A DNA stretch of 64,000 bases from the NCBI GenBank assembly GCA_965223425.1, contig OZ245003.1, forward strand, positions 2,304,001 to 2,368,000. The letters run 5' to 3'. The notes beneath the pieces are model-generated. The model had not been told where the DNA came from. It saw nothing but the letters and a program-made list of their open reading frames with translations, and did no database searches. Numbering within the stretch: the first letter of the stretch is position 1; each line of letters opens with the position of its first letter. The translations under genes and the position numbers were made by a program. Positions 25,940 through 61,425 of this stretch are shown piece by piece. Source of the DNA: Nitrosopumilus sp. (GTDB lineage Archaea; Thermoproteota; Nitrososphaeria; Nitrososphaerales; Nitrosopumilaceae).

Positions 25940-26546
25940 TAGTGTCAAGCAAAAGTTCTTGAATGATCAAATTTGCCAAGCAGGAACATATTTTGATCCC
26001 CGCAACCTAGTTGAGGCATGCCTCCAACATTAACATCGGAAGATCTCAGGAAGACGTACAAAAACGAGAAGGATCTCAGAATAAGAAGCAGGATACTGGC
26101 AGTAAACATGGTGTGCGTGCAGGGTGCAAGCGTCCACAGATTACCGCCGACTTTCTGCTGCAGAGCGCAGGATGGGTATCTTATTGGGTAGATCGCTTTG
26201 AGAAGGGCGGAATAGATGCCCTTCGGGATCTTCCCAGAACAGGCAGACCGCCCAAGATTGAACAAAAAAAGATCAACAAGATAATATCGTCCCGTCCGGG
26301 CAACAGAACCACACCCAAGATGCTCCGCAACGACATACGAAAGAAGCATCATATCACATACCACATTACGTCTGTCCGAAGAATATTGAAAAGGATGAAC
26401 ATGTCTGTCAAGAGGACACAGACGGTTCATGCAAACAGGGCAAGCACAAAAAAGATCCGCAGCTGGCAAAAACGCATAAAAAACAAGATTCCACGCCTGA
26501 ATCGGGAGGGGTTTGTAACTGTGATACAGGACGAGGCCATCTACGT

Positions 26547-27915
26547 CAGTAGTTCCCAGATGTAGATTTACCGCAACCGCAACTGGCATCGGTTCTACTT
26601 GCCTCGATCATTGACAAACAACTCGTTTCTGCTTGTAATGTACACGATAAACAACGCCATGGTGAGTTTTTTTCCCGCAGAAGACGCTCTTCCGTGCCTC
26701 TTTCCCGCATCAAGGCAGAACCTGGCAATCCTCCACAGGTTGTACAGCAGCAGCGGCAGGTAAAACATCAGCAGCCTCACAGACAGGGAGTTGCTGCATG
26801 TCCTGCCCATGATCTCCTTTATGACGCGAAACCCCGTCTCGATGCCCCATCTCTTGCGGTACTGCTCCGGTATGATGCCTGTCATGGCTCTGGCGCTCCT
26901 GATGGGAATGTTTGTTGCAAACGCAATGTATTGCTCCTCCCCCTCCTCTTCCCCCTCCCCCTTTTTCTTCTTCTTCCTGTCTCTTTTGACAATTACAAGG
27001 TTGTAGGTCACAGTTACGCCGTCTTTGTTGGTCATTGACTGCTGCGATACCTGGCTTGCCTTTCCGTCCTTGTACATCTTGACTATCCTCTTGATCTTGG
27101 AGTTCATGATGACAGGCATAATGTAGCGGCACCCGCCCTTTCCTGCCTCTGTCATGCAGTCAACGTTGTAAAAGGCGCGGTCGTACAGGAACACAGTCTT
27201 TGAGTGTGCGCCCCCTCTGAGGATTTTCGTGCGTGTTTTGGCTATAAAATCGGCCAGTTTTTCCTTTGCCGGTAGTAGCTTCGATTCCAGGACAATCTGC
27301 GAGGAGTCCCTGCCGACTCCGTGCACTGCGACATACGAGAGAAACGTGGATGTTCCTGCCCTTGGACGCGACTTTCTTGTATGCTCCTGCAGCTGCTCCC
27401 CATGGTATGGTATGTCCGTAACGTCTATTGCAATGGCGTCGATGTCCTGCAGCATTCCTGCACGGCAGGCGTGCCGCACCGTGCGTGCCAGCGTCCTTGC
27501 ACACCAGGCCTGCACGTCTGCCGGTTCGACGCCACGGACTGCAGACATGACCAGGTCTGCATCAGGCGTACGTGCACCCGTGTCTTGAAGCCTGTTGTGC
27601 CGCACGAGGGATTCTACAAACGTGTTTCTCTCAGACGCCTTGATTAGCACGTCCAGTATGTCATTGCATCCGTATACGGCGTTGTGCCTCTCAGACATTG
27701 GCATGCCAAGCTTTTGAAACGACGAGCGCAAGATTTTAAACCGGTTTGATGTTATATTGTACTGGCGTGCGATCAGTTCGTCATGTAATTCGACTTTCAT
27801 GACATATTGCACGCCGTAGCCTAATCTGGATCTTTGCATTGCAGTTATGCGGTAACGCACCGGCATCTGGGCATAAACCTACATCTGGGCACAAATCTAC
27901 ATCTGGGAACTACTG
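26547..27915 (-). mobile_element. ISH3-family element type 2, intact transposase 26595..27866
   Basis: TIR CAGTAGTTCCCAGATGTAGATTT, ACGT duplication; three CATCTGGG subterminal repeats; YRKRWGIETGFR. Confidence 0.92.
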
Positions 27916-27949
27916 ACGTGCACGAGAATGCGGCAGGCCGAAAGTACTG

Positions 27950-56377: not shown

Positions 56378-56770
56378 CAGTAGTTCCCAGATGTAGATTT
56401 ACCGCAACCGCAACTGACATCGGCTCTACTTGCCTCGATCATTGACAAACAGCTCGTTCCTGCCTGTAATGTACACGATAAACAACTCCATGGTAAGTTT
56501 TTTCCCGCAGAAGACACTCCTCCATACATCTTTCCTGCATCAAGGCAGAACCTGGCGATCCTCCACAGGTTGTACAGCAGCAGCGGCAGATAAAACATCA
56601 GCAGCCTCACAGCCAGGGAGTTGCTGCATGTCCTGCCCATGATTTCCTTTATGACGCGAAACCCCGTCTCGATGCCCCATCTTGCGGTACTGCTTCGGTA
56701 TGATGTCTGTCATGGCTCTGTGGCACTCCTGATGGGAATGTTTGTTGCAAACGCAATGTATTGCTCCTTT
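56378..56770 (-). mobile_element. ISH3 type 2 end remnant
   Basis: Similar to 26547..26940. Confidence 0.85.
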
Positions 56771-57975: not shown

Positions 57976-58052
57976 TTGGGCTCCGATACTTGGCAACTCT
58001 ATAAAAAGTAACAGCTCGCGTTTTTGAAGCGATTTGAGGCAGTGCATAGTCT

Positions 58053-58686
58053 GGTTCTGTTGCGTTAGCGGGTGTTAGCTAGAAATTTTAAAACTGTGTG
58101 AGTTTAGCTGGTTATCAAATGGTAGAGATAGTTGTTGGCTCAAGCTAATTTCATAATTTTTTTATTGAGATGGTTTTAAAATATTTTTGTGGAAGAGATA
58201 ATCAAAATTCCAAATATTAATTTGAATTGGAGTGAATGGTACAAATGGAATGATCTGAAACTTGATGCAAGAGTTAACACATACAATCGAATACATGTTC
58301 CAAACAAACAATCAGGTGTTTATGAGGCAAAATATGAAGATGTATCTGAAAGACTAACCATTGGTAGAGCATCTAATTTATGTTCTAGAATAAAACAAGG
58401 ATTAGTCAAAGGTAACATACCACATAGTGCAGGGGAACGTATGAGATCTGATATTGATGATTTTTCCAAAGTTGTTGTGAGATGGGCAATAACTGATCGA
58501 CCACCAATGATTGAAAAAGAGTTACATAAAAAACATAGGCAGAAATATGGAAAATTACCAAAATATGTTCTGAGAACTTAAAAAATAACCTTCGCCTATC
58601 TTAACACCTTGTTCAATTAGCTCAAAACCCTTGATACCTTATCAGTGTAAAAATTTCTAGATAACACCCGCTAACGCAACAGAACC
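58053..58686. mobile_element. Transposase-less inverted-repeat cassette
   Basis: ~44-bp TIR GGTTCTGTTGCGTTAGCGGGTGTTA(G/T)CTAGAAATTTT...ACTG with 3 mismatches. Confidence 0.75.
58189..58581 (+). CDS. GIY-YIG-like nuclease
   Basis: GVY...TIGRASNLCSRI...E...LPKY. Confidence 0.65.
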   Translation: MEEIIKIPNINLNWSEWYKWNDLKLDARVNTYNRIHVPNKQSGVYEAKYEDVSERLTIGRASNLCSRIKQGLVKGNIPHSAGERMRSDIDDFSKVVVRWAITDRPPMIEKELHKKHRQKYGKLPKYVLRT

Positions 58687-58692
58687 ATCGAC

Positions 58693-58873
58693 TAGTGTGT
58701 TGCATAACTCGGCCTGACCACATCCCGTCCATCCCAGGATCCATGCACCTGCTCCCCTACATTGTTGCTGCCACCCACCGGTTGTACATCAGTAGTTCCC
58801 AGATGTAGATTTACCGCAACCGCAACTGGCATCGGTTCTACTTGCTTCGATCATTGACAAACAACTCGTTTCT
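58693..58873. mobile_element. Stacked end fragments: IS5 type A (58693..58789) and ISH3 type 2 (58790..58873)
   Basis: Matches to 1779ff and 26547ff. Confidence 0.85.
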
Positions 58874-58905
58874 GAACACATGATAACCACCTTGTCGTAG
58901 TTACT

Positions 58906-59027
58906 GTGATGGATCGACCCCTGCACATGTATGGGCTTTGCGCCCTTGTTTCTGAATGGGGCAATCCGAGCTGCTGTGTAATTGGGCCTTGCGCCCTGAT
59001 AGGTGTATGCAGCTTCCGATCCACCAC
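58906..59027 (+). ncRNA. Putative IS110 bridge/seek RNA
   Basis: Hand folding: outer stem enclosing two internal loops, each capped by a GGGC-(T/C)TTGC-GCCC hairpin; directly upstream of an IS110 recombinase. Confidence 0.6.
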
Positions 59028-59057
59028 AACATATCCAAAAGGAGGTGATAAAAAAGG

Positions 59058-59322
59058 ATGAATGCAAACATTGGAATAGACATTGGAAAGAAAAAATGTG
59101 ACGTATGCGTAGTGGACGGGAATGGAAAGGTCCTGGAGACAGGGCAGCATGCCAACACAACACACGAGGCAGGCAAATTTGCACAAAAGATGGCGCACAA
59201 ATACGCCGGCAAGGCAAGAAAATGCAGGGCAGCATGCGAGACTACTGCCAACATGTGGCTCAAGACCTTTGATGCCTTTGAGCAGGCAGGCATGGAAATC
59301 AAGCTGGCCAACACGTACAAAC
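59058..59322 (+). pseudogene. IS110-family recombinase, N-terminal DEDD RuvC fragment
   Basis: IGIDIGK..CDVCVVD.NG, ACETT..W, LAN; GGAGGTGA RBS; cut by an IS5 right end. Confidence 0.87.
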
Positions 59323-59477
59323 TAGTGCATGAGGCACTGCAAGTGCGCACGGGTTTGAATTTCTGCGAATTTACAATGATCTTTTGCATCAAAATTAAAT
59401 AATTTCTTGGACTGGCTTTGTGTGTCTTGGCAGTGTGTGCTGCAGAAAAAATTTGACGGGTCAATTATGCATAGTCT
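59323..59477 (+). mobile_element. IS5 (DDE_Tnp_4) right end
   Basis: Matches 4072..4230. Confidence 0.85.
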
Positions 59478-59514
59478 AGTATTGTAGGTGTCTAGGCGAT
59501 CTAGTCCTTGTATC

Positions 59515-60045
59515 TCATATGGATTCTGGCAGCGTGACCTTTAGTTTTATCCACTTTTTGCGCGCATTTTTGATGCTGTCAGTAGAAAAATTTTCCTTTA
59601 TTGCGTGCACCTTGTCTAACAAATCGGCATCTTTAATGTCTGGGCTGTTTCTTTTTACAAAGTCAATGGTTGCTGCAAGCTCTAGTTCTTCTTTGTTCCA
59701 ATTAGACAGATTCGTCACAAGATTTCGTGTTTTTTTTACCTTGGCAGGATCACATACGTCTTTTTCAAATTTTTCTATAAGATTGATTCCTTTGTCAGTA
59801 AGGCTGAAAGTATGTGGGGTATTGCTGCTTTGCTCAACTAGTCCAACAGATTCTGCCGTCTTTGCGGTGTCTGCAAGCGCAAAGGAGAATGGCCCGTAAT
59901 AATGGAGTTGATAACCGTTAATATCCCAGTCCAAGTACTGGCAGAAATACGCTATCTTTTGCAGTTTGGTTCTTCCGGCAATCTGATGATTCTTGCCGCC
60001 GTCTATGATCAAACAAAGTAACCCAACATCATCAATTATTGCCAT
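59515..60045 (-). CDS. YwgA/Panacea-like protein
   Basis: IAGRTKLQKIAYF...YQLHYYGPFS...LTDKG...LELAATI. Confidence 0.75.
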   Translation of the reverse strand: MAIIDDVGLLCLIIDGGKNHQIAGRTKLQKIAYFCQYLDWDINGYQLHYYGPFSFALADTAKTAESVGLVEQSSNTPHTFSLTDKGINLIEKFEKDVCDPAKVKKTRNLVTNLSNWNKEELELAATIDFVKRNSPDIKDADLLDKVHAIKENFSTDSIKNARKKWIKLKVTLPESI

Positions 60046-60072
60046 GTTATACCCACAAACAATGCCACATTA

Positions 60073-61425
60073 TTAGTATTTAGTTAGTTGGTCAAGCATA
60101 TTGCTAACCTTTGGTGAAATCTGCTCCGGATAAAAAATCCTGATCGAACTTTTGTCATCCTTGCTGATGGCCTCAACCAGCGGAGAAATCCGAGATATTT
60201 CCTCAAGCTTCTTATGCTCTGTGATTACCATGATGTGACTAATTGCAGTTTGCTCATCGTCTTGTTCTGTAGCCGTATACGGTTCATAGCCAGGTGTTTT
60301 CTCGGCATCTTGAATGAAATAATAGTCAAAATCTAGCCCTTTCTTCTTGAATTCCTTTTTGATATCCTTCATAGAATCTAATCCCAGTTGGATCATATCA
60401 TTCTGATTAATCCGGTGTACCTTTAGCAGCTGCCTATTAATCAGACGTGCAGACATGTCCTTTAGAATTCTATCTGAAGACTTGGTCCATCCATGAATCG
60501 CAGAATAGCACATATAATCATCCAGAGAAAGCATCATGCCTGGAGTGGCCTTTTTTGTAATGTCGACTATTTTGTTGTGTTTTTTGGACAGTTCTGATGC
60601 TCGCTTGAATATCTTGACTAGAATGTTTTCCATGCAACGGATGGTTTTGTGATAATATACTCCCTTGTACATGTGATATCTTCCTAGAAGGTAATCCTCA
60701 ACGGCTTCTATTCCTTTTTGAGAAACGACCACTGTTCCTTTCAGTGATTCTTTGGGTGTTTTCTTGTTCCATATTGACAGCGTGTTTGCAATTCTATAGA
60801 TATCGATTTTTCCATATGGAACGCCTGTAAACAGTGCGTCCCTCATGAGATAGTCAAGCCGGTCAGCGTCTAGCTGGCTGCTTATTAGCTGCGATACAAA
60901 CAGCAGATCTCCGGAGACCGCATGCTTTAAGATATCGCAGATGAGCTGGGACGAGATTCTATTCTCATTCAGTATTTTTTTAATCTCGGTTTTGCGAATG
61001 ATATCCTGTGTCATATCTTCATGGTTGAATTTTCCCTTATTGAGGAACTTTTCTGATGCATGTGAGAAGGGACCGTGTCCGATATCGTGAAGCAGGGCAG
61101 CAACTGCACCAACAGGTCTGAGTCTTGTGATTCTGTCCTTGCTCAGGGTTGATCTTTTGGCAACTGAATCAAACAGTACAAGAAAAACATGCATTACGCC
61201 TATGCTGTGCGCAAATCTGGAATGTGTTGCATTTGGATAAACAGTTGATGCAAGACCAAGCTGATGTAGCCGCCTCAGTCTCTGGAAGTGCGGAGTATCA
61301 ATTAATTGCTGTATTACTGGATATTCTGATATGTCGATAAAGTTGTGAATCGGATCCATTATTTGGATGATTTTATCGTTTGGATGCCGTTGTGGTACTT
61401 TGTCTAGCACTTGTAAATTCATCAA
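60073..61425 (-). CDS. HD-domain dNTP triphosphohydrolase (SAMHD1/YwfO-like)
   Basis: DPIH, FQRLRRLHQLG, HSRFAHSIG, LLHDIGHGPFSH, DADRLDYLMRD, MY..VYYH. Confidence 0.9.
   Translation of the reverse strand: MMNLQVLDKVPQRHPNDKIIQIMDPIHNFIDISEYPVIQQLIDTPHFQRLRRLHQLGLASTVYPNATHSRFAHSIGVMHVFLVLFDSVAKRSTLSKDRITRLRPVGAVAALLHDIGHGPFSHASEKFLNKGKFNHEDMTQDIIRKTEIKKILNENRISSQLICDILKHAVSGDLLFVSQLISSQLDADRLDYLMRDALFTGVPYGKIDIYRIANTLSIWNKKTPKESLKGTVVVSQKGIEAVEDYLLGRYHMYKGVYYHKTIRCMENILVKIFKRASELSKKHNKIVDITKKATPGMMLSLDDYMCYSAIHGWTKSSDRILKDMSARLINRQLLKVHRINQNDMIQLGLDSMKDIKKEFKKKGLDFDYYFIQDAEKTPGYEPYTATEQDDEQTAISHIMVITEHKKLEEISRISPLVEAISKDDKSSIRIFYPEQISPKVSNMLDQLTKY

What the first reader, a model, noticed from the sequence alone, without database searches (positions are those of the whole stretch)
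58874..59322. Bridge-RNA-like structure upstream of an archaeal IS110 recombinase
Seen by hand folding: outer stem GTGATGGATCG (58906-16) with CGATCCACCAC (59017-27). Loop 1 has stem CCCC/GGGG (58918-21/58958-61), unpaired TGCACATGTAT and TTGTTTCTGAAT, and cap GGGC-TTTGC-GCCC. Loop 2 has stem AGCTGC/GCAGCT (58969-74/59009-14), unpaired TGTGTAATT and TGATAGGTGTAT, and cap GGGC-CTTGC-GCCC. The 9-mer GTTTCTGAA in loop 1 also occurs at the element's left junction (58868-76). Established: IS110 elements such as IS621 encode an RNA with separate target- and donor-binding internal loops. Inference: this is a compact thaumarchaeal bridge RNA with two near-duplicate hairpin caps. The junction match may be a guide or chance, and the recombinase here is truncated.
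Basis: partly seen in the sequence, partly recalled or inferred. Interest (0 to 1): 0.72.

Follow-up and report, generated by a model that had tools for sequence, protein, structure and literature searches.

The report
Archaeal bridge RNA gene, dead copy
This is the broken left end of a jumping gene in an ammonia-oxidising archaeon that still carries its small guide ("bridge") RNA gene, whose loops spell out the insertion site and the element's own ends; the mechanism is already known from bacteria.

Summary

Window 58873-59324 is a truncated copy ("W") of a 1.4-kb IS110-superfamily insertion sequence. The genome holds 8 copies and only one is intact. A covariance model of the RNA finds it upstream of recombinase homologues in 20 of 151 genomes of the class.

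The fold is supported by compensatory changes: 20 of 29 pairs, 88.5% of cells paired, against 34-50% in slid controls.

Loop 1 is the target-binding loop:
- Positions 4-7 of its 3' strand equal the four bases left of the element in 39-43 of 44 independent insertions.
- Its 5' strand is complementary to the six bases right of the element.

Loop 2 reads the element's own right and left ends. So the junction 9-mer is a guide match, not chance.

The guide order, the 12-bp subterminal inverted repeats and the 7-bp/3-bp terminal extensions are IS1111-like. The RNA position upstream of the gene is IS110-like.

W itself is dead: 88 recombinase residues and no right end. No RNA data exist.

This scan found the same family before in other genomes (e1-5476693, e1-5476750). 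It is a new member of a known kind.

The parts
58786..58872 (+). Left 87 nt of a copy of a ~1.38-kb DDE (ISH3-like) insertion sequence, the host element into which W inserted. Its last bases, CGTTTC, are the left target.
   Evidence: The repeat starts at 58783-58789 and ends at 58874 in 41 matches. 40 uninterrupted copies read ...CAACTCGTTTC-TG-CTTGTAATGTACACG. The intact copy at window 26543-27920 has an ORF at 26595-27866(-) with PF01609 E=2e-11 and NF033541 ISH3, 134.9 bits, below the cut-off of 225.
58873..58874 (+). Shared dinucleotide TG (the putative core). It is present in the target, at both junctions, and in the 3' strand of both loops.
   Evidence: The host repeat matches through 58874, and the IS copies match from 58873. 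TG stands at positions 8-9 of both 12-nt 3' strands.
58873..59324 (+). Truncated IS copy 'W': left end, RNA gene and the first 88 codons of the recombinase. The right 950 bp, including the right end, are missing.
   Evidence: 76-77% identical to six other copies and 89% to c129. The intact copy c2063 is about 1405 bp.
58873..58891 (+). Left terminal extension TGAACAC (7 bp) followed by the subterminal inverted repeat ATGATAACCACC (12 bp).
   Evidence: In the intact relatives the right end reads GGTGGTTAACAT-AGG-(TG). The inverted repeat matches at 11 of 12 positions, and its sequence changes in step at both ends in other subfamilies.
58906..59027 (+). Bridge RNA core, 122 nt: an outer stem enclosing two hairpins, each with an internal loop.
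   Evidence: Model R1 scores 141.4 bits here, the best of all hits. RNAalifold on a plain MAFFT alignment predicts both hairpins.
58922..58932 (+). Loop 1, 5' strand (TGCACATGTAT): the right-target guide. [quoted passage not shown] Positions 9-10 lie opposite the core.
   Evidence: Antiparallel complement diagonal with excess 54, 44, 48, 19, 31 and 30% in 42 elements. Own mean 3.88 of 6 against 1.61 crosswise, and 0 of 10000 permutations as high. W against the empty host site gives 4 of 6.
58946..58957 (+). Loop 1, 3' strand (TTGTTTCTGAAT): left-target guide (positions 3-7), then core TG (8-9), then AA (10-11), which equals the first two bases of the element after the core (handshake-like).
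   Evidence: Positions 4-7 equal flank positions -4 to -1 in 41, 39, 41 and 43 of 44 non-redundant insertions. Position 3 matches in 22 of 44. 0 of 10000 permutations were as high. AA faces AA in 35 of 44.
58975..58983 (+). Loop 2, 5' strand (TGTGTAATT): the guide for the element's left end. Positions 6 to 1 are complementary to bases +1 to +6 after the core (AACACA).
   Evidence: Mean 4.8 of 6 against 3.38 crosswise in 25 distinct donor/loop combinations. 0 of 10000 permutations were as high.
58997..59008 (+). Loop 2, 3' strand (TGATAGGTGTAT): the guide for the element's right end. ATAGG-TG equals the last 5 bases of the right end plus the core.
   Evidence: 5 of 5 in 23 of 25 distinct combinations, changing in step (ATAGG, ATAGA, ATGGA, ACAGG, ACAGA, ATGGG). 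0 of 10000 permutations were as high.
58933..58945 (+). Cap hairpin 1 (GGGC-TTTGC-GCCC).
   Evidence: Three of its 4 pairs show compensatory changes. Caps 1 and 2 of one element differ by 1.74 nt on average, against 4.28 between elements.
58984..58996 (+). Cap hairpin 2 (GGGC-CTTGC-GCCC).
   Evidence: Three of its 4 pairs show compensatory changes.
59058..59324 (+). N-terminal 88 codons of the DEDD recombinase. The first Asp (IGIDIG) and the Glu (AACETT) are present. The DxxD motif, the coiled coil and the Ser-bearing domain are lost. GGAGGTGA lies 9 nt upstream of the ATG.
   Evidence: PF01548 E=1e-10, residues 5-88 on profile positions 1-80 of 155. The intact c2063 protein has PF01548 + PF02371 and NF033542, 212.6 bits.
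59325..59478 (+). A 154-nt repeat (the end of another mobile element) that abuts the break in W.
   Evidence: 16 matches start at 59325 and 5 at 59329. Ends fall at 59473-59484.

Best explanation
Window 58873-59324 is the 5' remnant of an RNA-guided insertion sequence of the IS110 superfamily in an ammonia-oxidising archaeon. Bases 58906-59027 encode its bridge (seek) RNA: an 11-bp closing stem around two hairpins, each with a fixed-size internal loop.

What the comparisons show:
- Loop 1 reads the target. Its 5' strand pairs with the top strand to the right of the crossover. Its 3' strand has the sequence of the top strand to the left, so it would pair with the bottom strand. That strand continues through the shared TG into the first two bases of the element.
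- Loop 2 reads the donor in the same way. Its 3' strand equals the right end plus TG. Its 5' strand is complementary to the left end.

What is inferred from experiments on IS621 and ISEc11:
- The element excises as a circle that joins right end, TG and left end.
- Recombinase dimers hold one loop each.
- The RNA bridges the circle junction and the target, and strands are exchanged at TG.

W's target loop is programmed for a site inside a 40-copy ISH3-like IS. Its sister lineages are programmed for the terminal 16 bp of other IS elements.

The W copy cannot move by itself. It keeps 88 of about 364 recombinase residues and has no right end.
For: Copies and ends. The genome has 8 copies and 3 short left-end fragments, all starting at the same base. 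One copy, c2063, is intact with a 364-aa PF01548 + PF02371 protein that scores 212.6 bits on NF033542 'IS110 family RNA-guided transposase'.

Structure.
- Plain MAFFT alignment of 17 sequences: 83.3% of cells paired, against 32-51% when slid. 13 of 29 pairs changed on both sides. 0 of 500 shuffles were as high. RNAalifold independently predicts both hairpins.
- Model-fitted alignment of 22 sequences: 88.5% paired, 20 of 29 pairs compensatory.
- Loop sizes are 11/12/9/12 nt in 60 of 62 full-length hits.

Guides.
- Left target: 39-43 of 44 matches at four positions.
- Right target: own 3.88 of 6 against 1.61 crosswise.
- Donor: 23 of 25 combinations with 5 of 5.
- No permutation in 10000 reached any of these values.

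Reprogramming. Among six copies that are 98-99% identical, 5 of 23 loop-1 columns vary, against 5 of 137 elsewhere. Copies in one other genome share a backbone but carry four different loop-1 pairs, each matching its own flanks.

Empty sites in this genome fit the guides.

Literature. The two-loop, two-strand logic is that of IS621 (PMC11208160, passages). The top-strand-first order and the 7/3-bp extensions are those of IS1111-family elements (PMC11187229, passages).
Against: - No transcript evidence. No RNA run holds the region, so expression, the RNA's ends and binding to the recombinase are all inferred.
- W alone does not fold better than shuffles (z = -0.35).
- No Rfam family matches.
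- The model-fitted alignments lean towards the structure.
- The outer stem is only 64% paired on the plain alignment and 78% on the fitted one.
- Guide matches are imperfect in some copies. Among the 44 counted insertions, c1871 and c276 match only 2 of 7 left-target positions. Eight of 42 elements match 2 or fewer of 6 right-target positions, some of them only after a 1-nt shift.
- L056/L058 have a loop-2 strand that mismatches their own right end.
- The left-end position was set by a rule in 55 elements. It was set by eye in 3 (L045, L059, L060), and for L059/L060 with the loop match in view.
- Related elements are not independent. Redundancy was reduced only by flank similarity.
Confidence: 0.9

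Rival explanations
1. The W copy is not a mere relic. Its intact RNA gene is still transcribed, and its RNA is used in trans by the recombinase of an intact relative (c2063). This would send c2063-type circles to the ISH3-like site that W's target loop specifies.
For: W has the best model score of all hits (141.4 bits) and the best-paired outer stem. The 3' strand of its donor loop is identical to that of c2063, and its 5' strand keeps the pairing bases TGTGT. 40 matching empty sites exist.
Against: Only 1 of 41 copies of the site is occupied, by W itself. W is only 76-77% identical to the c2063 lineage, so cross-recognition by that recombinase is untested. W has lost the right end, which is where the family's conserved TATA-like box lies. 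There are no RNA data.
Confidence: 0.12
2. The structure is only a 5' leader of the recombinase mRNA that controls translation or stability. On this reading, the similarity of its loops to the flanks is a by-product of insertion-site preference set by the protein.
For: The RNA lies directly upstream of GGAGGTGA and the ATG with no T-run between them, so it is probably part of the mRNA leader. W alone folds no better than chance.
Against: A protein-set preference would not make four different loop strands change in step with four different DNA segments, copy by copy, within one genome and on an otherwise near-identical backbone. The homologous system has been shown experimentally to be RNA-guided (PMC11208160, PMC11187229; passages read).
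Confidence: 0.04
3. The hairpins and the 9-mer repeat are coincidental.
For: A 9-mer occurring twice in 64 kb is unremarkable: 32 of 100 shuffles do as well. The MFE z-score is -0.35.
Against: The same architecture recurs with compensatory changes in 20 of 151 genomes of the class. The loop-flank match recurs in 39-43 of 44 independent insertions.
Confidence: 0.01

Closest known systems
IS621 bridge RNA (IS110 group; Durrant et al. 2024, PMC11208160; Hiraizumi et al. 2024, PMC11208158; passages read)
   Same: - A DEDD + Ser recombinase.
- The RNA is encoded in the left non-coding end, upstream of the gene.
- The first internal loop reads the target and the second reads the donor.
- Each loop uses one strand for each DNA strand, and the core is included in the guides.
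- A 2-nt handshake-like extension lies on the 3' strand of the target loop.
- Guide lengths agree: about 8 nt on the 5' strand and about 6-7 nt on the 3' strand.
   Different: - The sides are swapped. Here the 5' strand of each loop pairs with the top strand to the RIGHT of the core, and the 3' strand pairs with the bottom strand to the LEFT. In IS621 it is 5' strand = left/bottom and 3' strand = right/top. The geometries coincide only if the DNA is turned round.
- The subterminal inverted repeats are 12 bp, against 2-3 bp.
- The core is TG, not CT.
- The RNA is more compact (122 nt) and closed by an outer stem.
- No handshake signal was seen in the donor loop.
IS1111-family elements with seekRNA (ISEc11, ISPa11, ISKpn4; Siddiquee et al. 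2024, PMC11187229; passages read)
   Same: - Subterminal inverted repeats of 11-13 bp.
- Terminal extensions of 7 bp (left) and 3 bp (right).
- No target duplication beyond the shared bases.
- The top-strand-complementary segment lies 5' of the bottom-strand one.
- Natural reprogramming between relatives.
   Different: In those elements the RNA lies downstream of the recombinase gene, in a long right end. Here it lies upstream, in the left end. Whether the recombinase branches with IS1111 proteins was not tested.
ISMtsp17, and ISHvo10/ISAcp5 (exceptions named in PMC11187229; passage read)
   Same: These are IS1111 relatives whose long non-coding region lies upstream (ISMtsp17) or on both sides (ISHvo10, ISAcp5). 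This is the same mixed layout.
   Different: In the passages I read, their RNAs and guides are not described. I did not see their sequences. The supplements are closed and may bear on this.
IS4321/IS5075 (IS1111 family; known to me only from the title of Partridge and Hall 2003 in the reference lists seen)
   Same: [quoted passage not shown] The c2063 lineage likewise targets tAG(C/T)T-TG-TTGCATAAC at the very end of other IS elements. There are 23 empty sites in this genome.
   Different: They are bacterial and target Tn21-family repeats. W itself targets an internal site of an IS, not its terminus.

Membership tests
IS110-superfamily bridge/seek RNA element | DEDD (RuvC-like) + Ser (Transposase_20) recombinase encoded next to the RNA | tested here: met
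   The intact relative c2063 has PF01548 (2e-28) + PF02371 (5.8e-18) and NF033542 at 212.6 bits, above the cut-off of 140. D11, E62, the DxxD motif (KTDKID) and QSG are visible in its sequence. W keeps only PF01548 profile positions 1-80 of 155.
IS110-superfamily bridge/seek RNA element | Conserved structured RNA with two internal loops in a non-coding end | tested here: met
   20 of 29 pairs are compensatory and 88.5% of cells are paired, against 34-50% when slid. The plain alignment gives 83.3%. RNAalifold predicts both hairpins.
IS110-superfamily bridge/seek RNA element | One loop's two strands covary with the two flanks of the insertion site | tested here: met
   Left: 39-43 of 44. Right: 3.88 of 6 against 1.61. 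0 of 10000 permutations were as high.
IS110-superfamily bridge/seek RNA element | The other loop's two strands match the element's own right and left ends | tested here: met
   23 of 25 combinations give 5 of 5 for the right end. The left end averages 4.8 of 6. Right ends were located with a generic end motif, not with each element's own loop.
IS110-superfamily bridge/seek RNA element | The RNA is transcribed and bound by the recombinase; a circular intermediate forms | not testable with these tools
   No RNA run is listed. The contigs laid show no junction. No right-end/left-end junction was found in the assembly or the loci.
IS110 group proper (IS621 type) | The 5' strand of each loop pairs with the bottom strand on the left, and the 3' strand pairs with the top strand on the right | tested here: not met
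   The order is reversed in both loops (against the PMC11208160 passage).
IS110 group proper (IS621 type) | Long left end carrying the RNA; only 2-3-bp subterminal repeats | tested here: inconclusive
   The RNA is in the left end (met). The subterminal repeats are 12 bp (not met).
IS1111 group | Subterminal inverted repeats of 11-13 bp with 7-bp left and 3-bp right extensions | tested here: met
   TGAACAC + ATGATAACCACC on the left; GGTGGTTAACAT + AGG on the right. The inverted repeats change in step in other subfamilies.
IS1111 group | The top-strand-complementary guide lies 5' of the bottom-strand one | tested here: met
   against the PMC11187229 passages.
IS1111 group | Guide RNA lies downstream of the recombinase gene, in a long right end | tested here: not met
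   All 65 full-length R1 hits in the own genome and the fetched loci lie upstream of the gene. None lies in a right end.
IS1111 group | Recombinase related over its full length to that of IS1111 | not tested
   tblastn against plasmids gave 22-27% identity to all named bacterial members alike, including ISEc11 at 26.4%. No tree was built.

The most novel reading that the evidence does not exclude
In this archaeal family the complete guide RNA, and with it recombinase expression, may be made only from the excised circle.
- A TATA-like A/T box sits at a fixed -89 to -71 from the right end in 13 of 18 subfamily representatives.
- About 25 nt downstream lies a box (-61 to -39) that is complementary to the 3' strand of the RNA's closing stem. 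Its sequence differs between subfamilies. It appeared in 13 of 20 examined. Seven of 16 were better than 95% of composition-matched shuffles, with mean z = -1.75.

On this reading a transcript would start in the right end, cross the circle junction, and be clamped shut by the pairing of right-end sequence with the far side of the bridge RNA. The subterminal repeats would form a hairpin over the junction. In the trial folds, 9 of 12 MFE structures had at least 11 pairs between the right end and the RNA segment. This would be an archaeal counterpart of the bacterial junction promoter, with an added RNA-level check that the ends have been joined.
Probability: 0.25. Interest if true: 0.6.

Novelty: new member of a known kind. 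Interest (0 to 1): 0.42.

Why it matters
It shows that RNA-guided (bridge/seek RNA) transposition operates in ammonia-oxidising archaea, with a compact 122-nt RNA.

It provides a natural reprogramming series. Dozens of independent insertions, on near-identical backbones, carry different target loops that match different sites. From these the guide code can be read directly: 4-5 + 2 (+2) nt on one strand and 6 (+2) nt on the other.

The family combines IS1111-type ends and guide polarity with the IS110-type RNA position. This bears on how the RNA gene moved between the ends during the evolution of the two groups.

For annotation, it explains why these IS sit inside other IS. It also supplies a covariance model for a family that Rfam 15 does not find.

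The copy in the window itself has no functional consequence.

Tried and rejected
- Single-sequence folding of 58860-59060 gave z = -0.35. It is uninformative, not evidence against the structure.
- Rfam 15 at E <= 10 over 58000-60000 gave only two chance-level hits elsewhere (MIR444, snoJ26) and nothing on the element.
- Expression: no RNA holder is listed among 12 runs.
- I laid Logan contigs of 4 runs on the intact copy. They are contigs only. No joint skips the element and there is no circle junction. Loose ends at the right junction show uninterrupted sites ending ...CACTAGCT/...GGTAGCT before TG, which fits the target but adds little.
- Exact right-end/left-end junction strings were not found in the genome or in any fetched locus.
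- Handshake in the donor loop: positions 10-11 of its 3' strand against the first two right-target bases gave 0.26/0.21 observed, 0.18/0.22 crosswise. No signal.
- I first thought the flank 4-mers and loop 4-mers were 'shuffled' between copies by some DNA-level process. I rejected this once empty sites showed three natural target variants, AGCT, AGTT and ATCT.
- I considered that the RNA might be on the other strand. I rejected this because the antisense reading gives neither the IS621 nor the IS1111 arrangement, and the model hits only the sense strand.
- Classifying the recombinase by tblastn against plasmids: all named bacterial relatives are equally distant at 22-27%. Inconclusive, so no tree was built.
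- Model R1 on the nearest plasmid homologue (a Halorubrum megaplasmid IS110, 34.7% identity) with filters off: best E = 0.26, so no match.
- The other IS110-family lineages of this genome (26 PF01548 matches) are not hit by R1. Their RNAs were not studied.
- Own-versus-cross duplex energies for the right-end box are confounded by shared G+C. The composition-matched control is only moderately positive: 7 of 16 at p <= 0.05, and coding-window controls do as well in 49 of 240. I therefore keep that idea as a hypothesis.
- Supplements of the papers are closed. Lists of predicted bridge RNAs there could already include this family.
Full report
WHAT IS THERE

The 114-codon frame at 59058-59402 matches the IS110 DEDD domain only over its first half: PF01548, E=1e-10, profile positions 1-80 of 155. 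On its own the 201-nt region does not fold better than shuffled sequence (z = -0.35). No Rfam 15 family matches it. A 9-mer seen twice in 64 kb is not remarkable either. Everything that follows therefore rests on comparison.

COPIES AND ENDS

The window lies in a 2.64-Mb genome that encodes archaeal AmoA (PF12942, E=3.9e-118). That genome holds seven further copies of the element and three short left-end fragments. All of them begin to match at window base 58873.

- Only one copy (c2063) is intact. It is about 1405 bp, with a 364-aa protein carrying PF01548 + PF02371. It scores 212.6 bits on NCBIfam NF033542 'IS110 family RNA-guided transposase'.
- Four of the six copies of that lineage carry insertions of about 1.1-1.4 kb. 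One is truncated and fused to another frame.
- W and its 89%-identical sister c129 are both truncated.
- The ends read TGAACAC-ATGATAACCACC... on the left and ...GGTGGTTAACAT-AGG on the right. This is a 12-bp subterminal inverted repeat with 7-bp and 3-bp extensions.
- A TG is shared by the target and both junctions.

THE SEQUENCE AROUND W

To the left, W sits 87 nt inside a copy of a ~1.38-kb DDE (ISH3-like) IS. Forty other copies of that IS are uninterrupted and read ...CGTTTC-TG-CTTGTAATG.... To the right, W breaks off at about 59324 against a 154-nt repeat. Both the rest of W and the rest of the host IS are gone.

STRUCTURE

Recombinase homologues occur in 34 of 200 other genomes of the family. 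The upstream regions of 17 diverse members were aligned with MAFFT.

- RNAalifold predicted the two hairpins with internal loops without any prompting.
13 of 29 pairs changed on both sides, and 0 of 500 shuffles were as high.
- A covariance model (R1) finds all 8 own copies, 22 hits in 31 sources and 35 hits in 40 further loci. All are upstream of the gene on the sense strand.
- In the class it hits 20 of 151 genomes, G000 included, across four families. One of those genomes, G077, is unpublished.
- On the model-fitted alignment, 20 of 29 pairs are compensatory and 88.5% of cells are paired. That alignment leans towards the structure.
- The outer stem is the weakest helix: 64% paired on the plain alignment and 78% on the fitted one.
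- Loop sizes are fixed at 11, 12, 9 and 12 nt in 60 of 62 full-length hits.
This suits two equivalent protein-binding modules.

GUIDES

I took 58 elements. Five low-scoring or cut hits were dropped first: L028, L033, L037, L041, L048. Collapsing by similarity of the left flank left 44.

- Left target. Positions 4, 5, 6 and 7 of the loop-1 3' strand equal the four bases left of the element in 41, 39, 41 and 43 of 44. Position 3 matches in 22. The mean is 4.59 of 7, against 1.74 crosswise, and 0 of 10000 permutations were as high.
- Handshake-like extension. That strand then carries TG and AA. AA equals the first two bases of the element in 35 of 44. GA faces GA in 2 of the 6 elements whose left end starts with GA. 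This is the pattern of an IS621 handshake guide (PMC11208158, passages).
- Right target. A position-by-position matrix on 42 elements with both flanks shows one antiparallel complementary diagonal. (49 elements had a right end. L068 was dropped because a partial IS copy follows it. Redundant elements were collapsed.) Loop-1 5'-strand positions 8 to 3 pair with the six bases right of the core. Own matches average 3.88 of 6, against 1.61 crosswise, and 0 of 10000 permutations were as high. Some elements fit only with a 1-nt shift.
- W against its empty host site scores 6 of 7 on the left and 4 of 6 on the right.
- Donor. The loop-2 3' strand equals the last five bases of the right end plus TG in 23 of 25 distinct combinations, changing in step. 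Its 5' strand is complementary to bases +1 to +6 of the left end, averaging 4.8 of 6. For both, 0 of 10000 permutations were as high.
- Exceptions are L056/L058 (loop 2 mismatches their own end) and L059/L060 (left end 6 nt shorter).

So loop 1 is the target-binding loop and loop 2 the donor-binding loop, as in IS621.

NATURAL REPROGRAMMING

- Among six copies that are 98-99% identical, 5 of 23 loop-1 columns vary, against 5 of 137 elsewhere.
- One other genome carries four different loop-1 pairs on one backbone, each fitting its own flanks.
- The c2063 lineage is aimed at tAG(C/T)T-TG-TTGCATAAC, the terminal bases of other IS elements (23 empty sites). It is also aimed at ATCT-TG-CGCACAAAGG (3 empty sites).
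- W has been re-aimed at an internal site of the ISH3-like IS.
- Two copies with paralogous flanks and the same internal insertion (c2135, c850) carry different loop-1 versions. The loops can therefore change after insertion, probably by exchange between copies.

COMPARISON WITH WHAT IS KNOWN

In IS621 the 5' strand of each loop pairs with the bottom strand on the left (8-9 nt). The 3' strand pairs with the top strand on the right (4-7 nt) (PMC11208160, passages). Here the lengths agree but the sides are swapped. The two arrangements coincide only if the DNA is turned round.

Siddiquee et al. (PMC11187229, passages) report exactly this reversed order for IS1111-family seekRNAs. They define that family by 11-13-bp subterminal repeats with 7-bp and 3-bp extensions, and both features are met here. 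That family, however, carries its RNA downstream of the gene, whereas here it is upstream.

The same paper names a few exceptions with upstream non-coding regions: ISMtsp17, and ISHvo10 and ISAcp5, which have long non-coding regions on both sides. The mixed layout is therefore not unheard of. I saw no description of their RNAs, and the supplements are closed.

A full-text search for IS110 together with thaumarchae* returned 7 papers. Judged from the listing and abstracts, none is about these RNAs. Vaysset et al. (10.1101/2024.06.21.599552, passages) count 662 archaeal IS110 recombinases but do not treat their RNAs.

This scan has already reported the same family in other genomes, with the same reading (e1-5476693 and e1-5476750). 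My analysis was done before I saw those notes and agrees with them.

AN EXTRA OBSERVATION, UNPROVEN

In the right ends of the relatives, an A/T-rich TATA-like box sits at -89 to -71 from the end in 13 of 18 subfamily representatives. This includes G+C-rich ones where such runs are rare.

About 25 nt downstream lies a box at -61 to -39 that is complementary to the 3' strand of the RNA's closing stem and the adjoining linker. Its sequence differs between subfamilies. It was seen in 13 of 20 examined.

- Own pairs are more stable than cross pairs (-21.0 against -16.7 kcal/mol; own tail ranked in the top three in 9 of 15). That comparison is confounded by G+C.
- Against composition-matched shuffles the mean z is -1.75, with 7 of 16 at p <= 0.05. 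Coding-region windows do as well in 49 of 240.
- In trial folds of right end + left end + RNA, joined only inside the script, 9 of 12 MFE structures had at least 11 pairs between the right end and the RNA segment.

This suggests a promoter in the right end whose transcript becomes a complete, clamped bridge RNA and recombinase mRNA only after circle formation. There are no RNA data to test it. The orientation of the box is also inferred only from its fixed spacing.

VERDICT

The finding is real and correctly interpreted. It is a bridge/seek RNA gene of an archaeal IS110-superfamily element with IS1111-type ends and polarity and an IS110-type RNA position. It is preserved here in a dead copy. 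The mechanism is known, so the novelty is that of a new family member with a clear natural guide code. Expression and activity remain untested.

Noticed in passing
Right ends of relatives, e.g. L021 about 2598-2724 (c2063); A TATA-like A/T box lies at a fixed -89 to -71 from the right end (13 of 18 subfamily representatives). About 25 nt downstream, a box is complementary to the 3' closing strand of the bridge RNA (13 of 20). This may be a right-end promoter whose transcript crosses the circle junction.
   Followed up: partly
G000:C1:1968686-1969491 (copy c1969; locus L004/L011): The recombinase frame of this copy runs on for 584 codons. About 200 IS110 residues are fused in frame to an unrelated C-terminal part. 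An earlier first-reader note (e1-6370165) calls that part a tyrosine recombinase. I did not test this.
   Followed up: no
window 26543-27920, and about 40 more copies in the genome (also window 56388-56462 and 58786-58874): A ~1.38-kb DDE insertion sequence (423-aa ORF, PF01609; best NCBIfam hit ISH3, below its cut-off) is present in about 41 copies. W is the only IS110-type insertion at its CGTTTC-TG-CTTGTA site.
   Followed up: partly
window 59325-59478: A 154-nt repeat with about 16-21 copies in the genome abuts the break in W. It reads GGGTCAATTATG over 59457-59468, about 10 nt before its end.
   Followed up: no
G000:C1 copies c2135 (2135837, -) and c850 (850534, +): These two copies have paralogous flanks and the same internal ~1.1-kb insertion, yet carry different target-loop versions (TGTATGCATAT/..AGCT.. 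against TGTGTACGTAT/..ATCT..). This suggests that loops are exchanged between copies after insertion.
   Followed up: partly
L059, L060 (G006): The left end is 6 nt shorter than in the sister copy L027. The junction lies at the next TG inside the element, and the flank still matches the target loop. This looks like an off-register recombination event.
   Followed up: no
L056, L058 (G041): The donor-loop 3' strand reads ATGGG-CG, while their own right end reads ATAGG-TG. These may be decaying copies, or guides for a different donor.
   Followed up: no
window 58053-58686: A 130-aa ORF (58189-58581) lies just left of the host IS fragment. It has no Pfam match at E <= 0.01. I did not test this.
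   Followed up: no
window 59515-61425 (- strand): Next to the IS debris lie an HD + HD_assoc_2 protein (450 aa; PF01966 1.1e-7, PF19276 6e-13) and a 176-aa ORF with a weak DUF6031 match.
   Followed up: no
G000 contig C2 (123 kb): The second contig has 46.9% G+C, against 41.2% for the chromosome. Earlier notes of the scan ascribe it to a sponge-symbiont bacterium. It may not belong to the archaeon.
   Followed up: no
G000 genome: The genome has 26 PF01548 matches in all. Besides this family there are at least three other IS110-type lineages (frames of 364, 309 and 386 aa). Model R1 does not hit their upstream regions.
   Followed up: no
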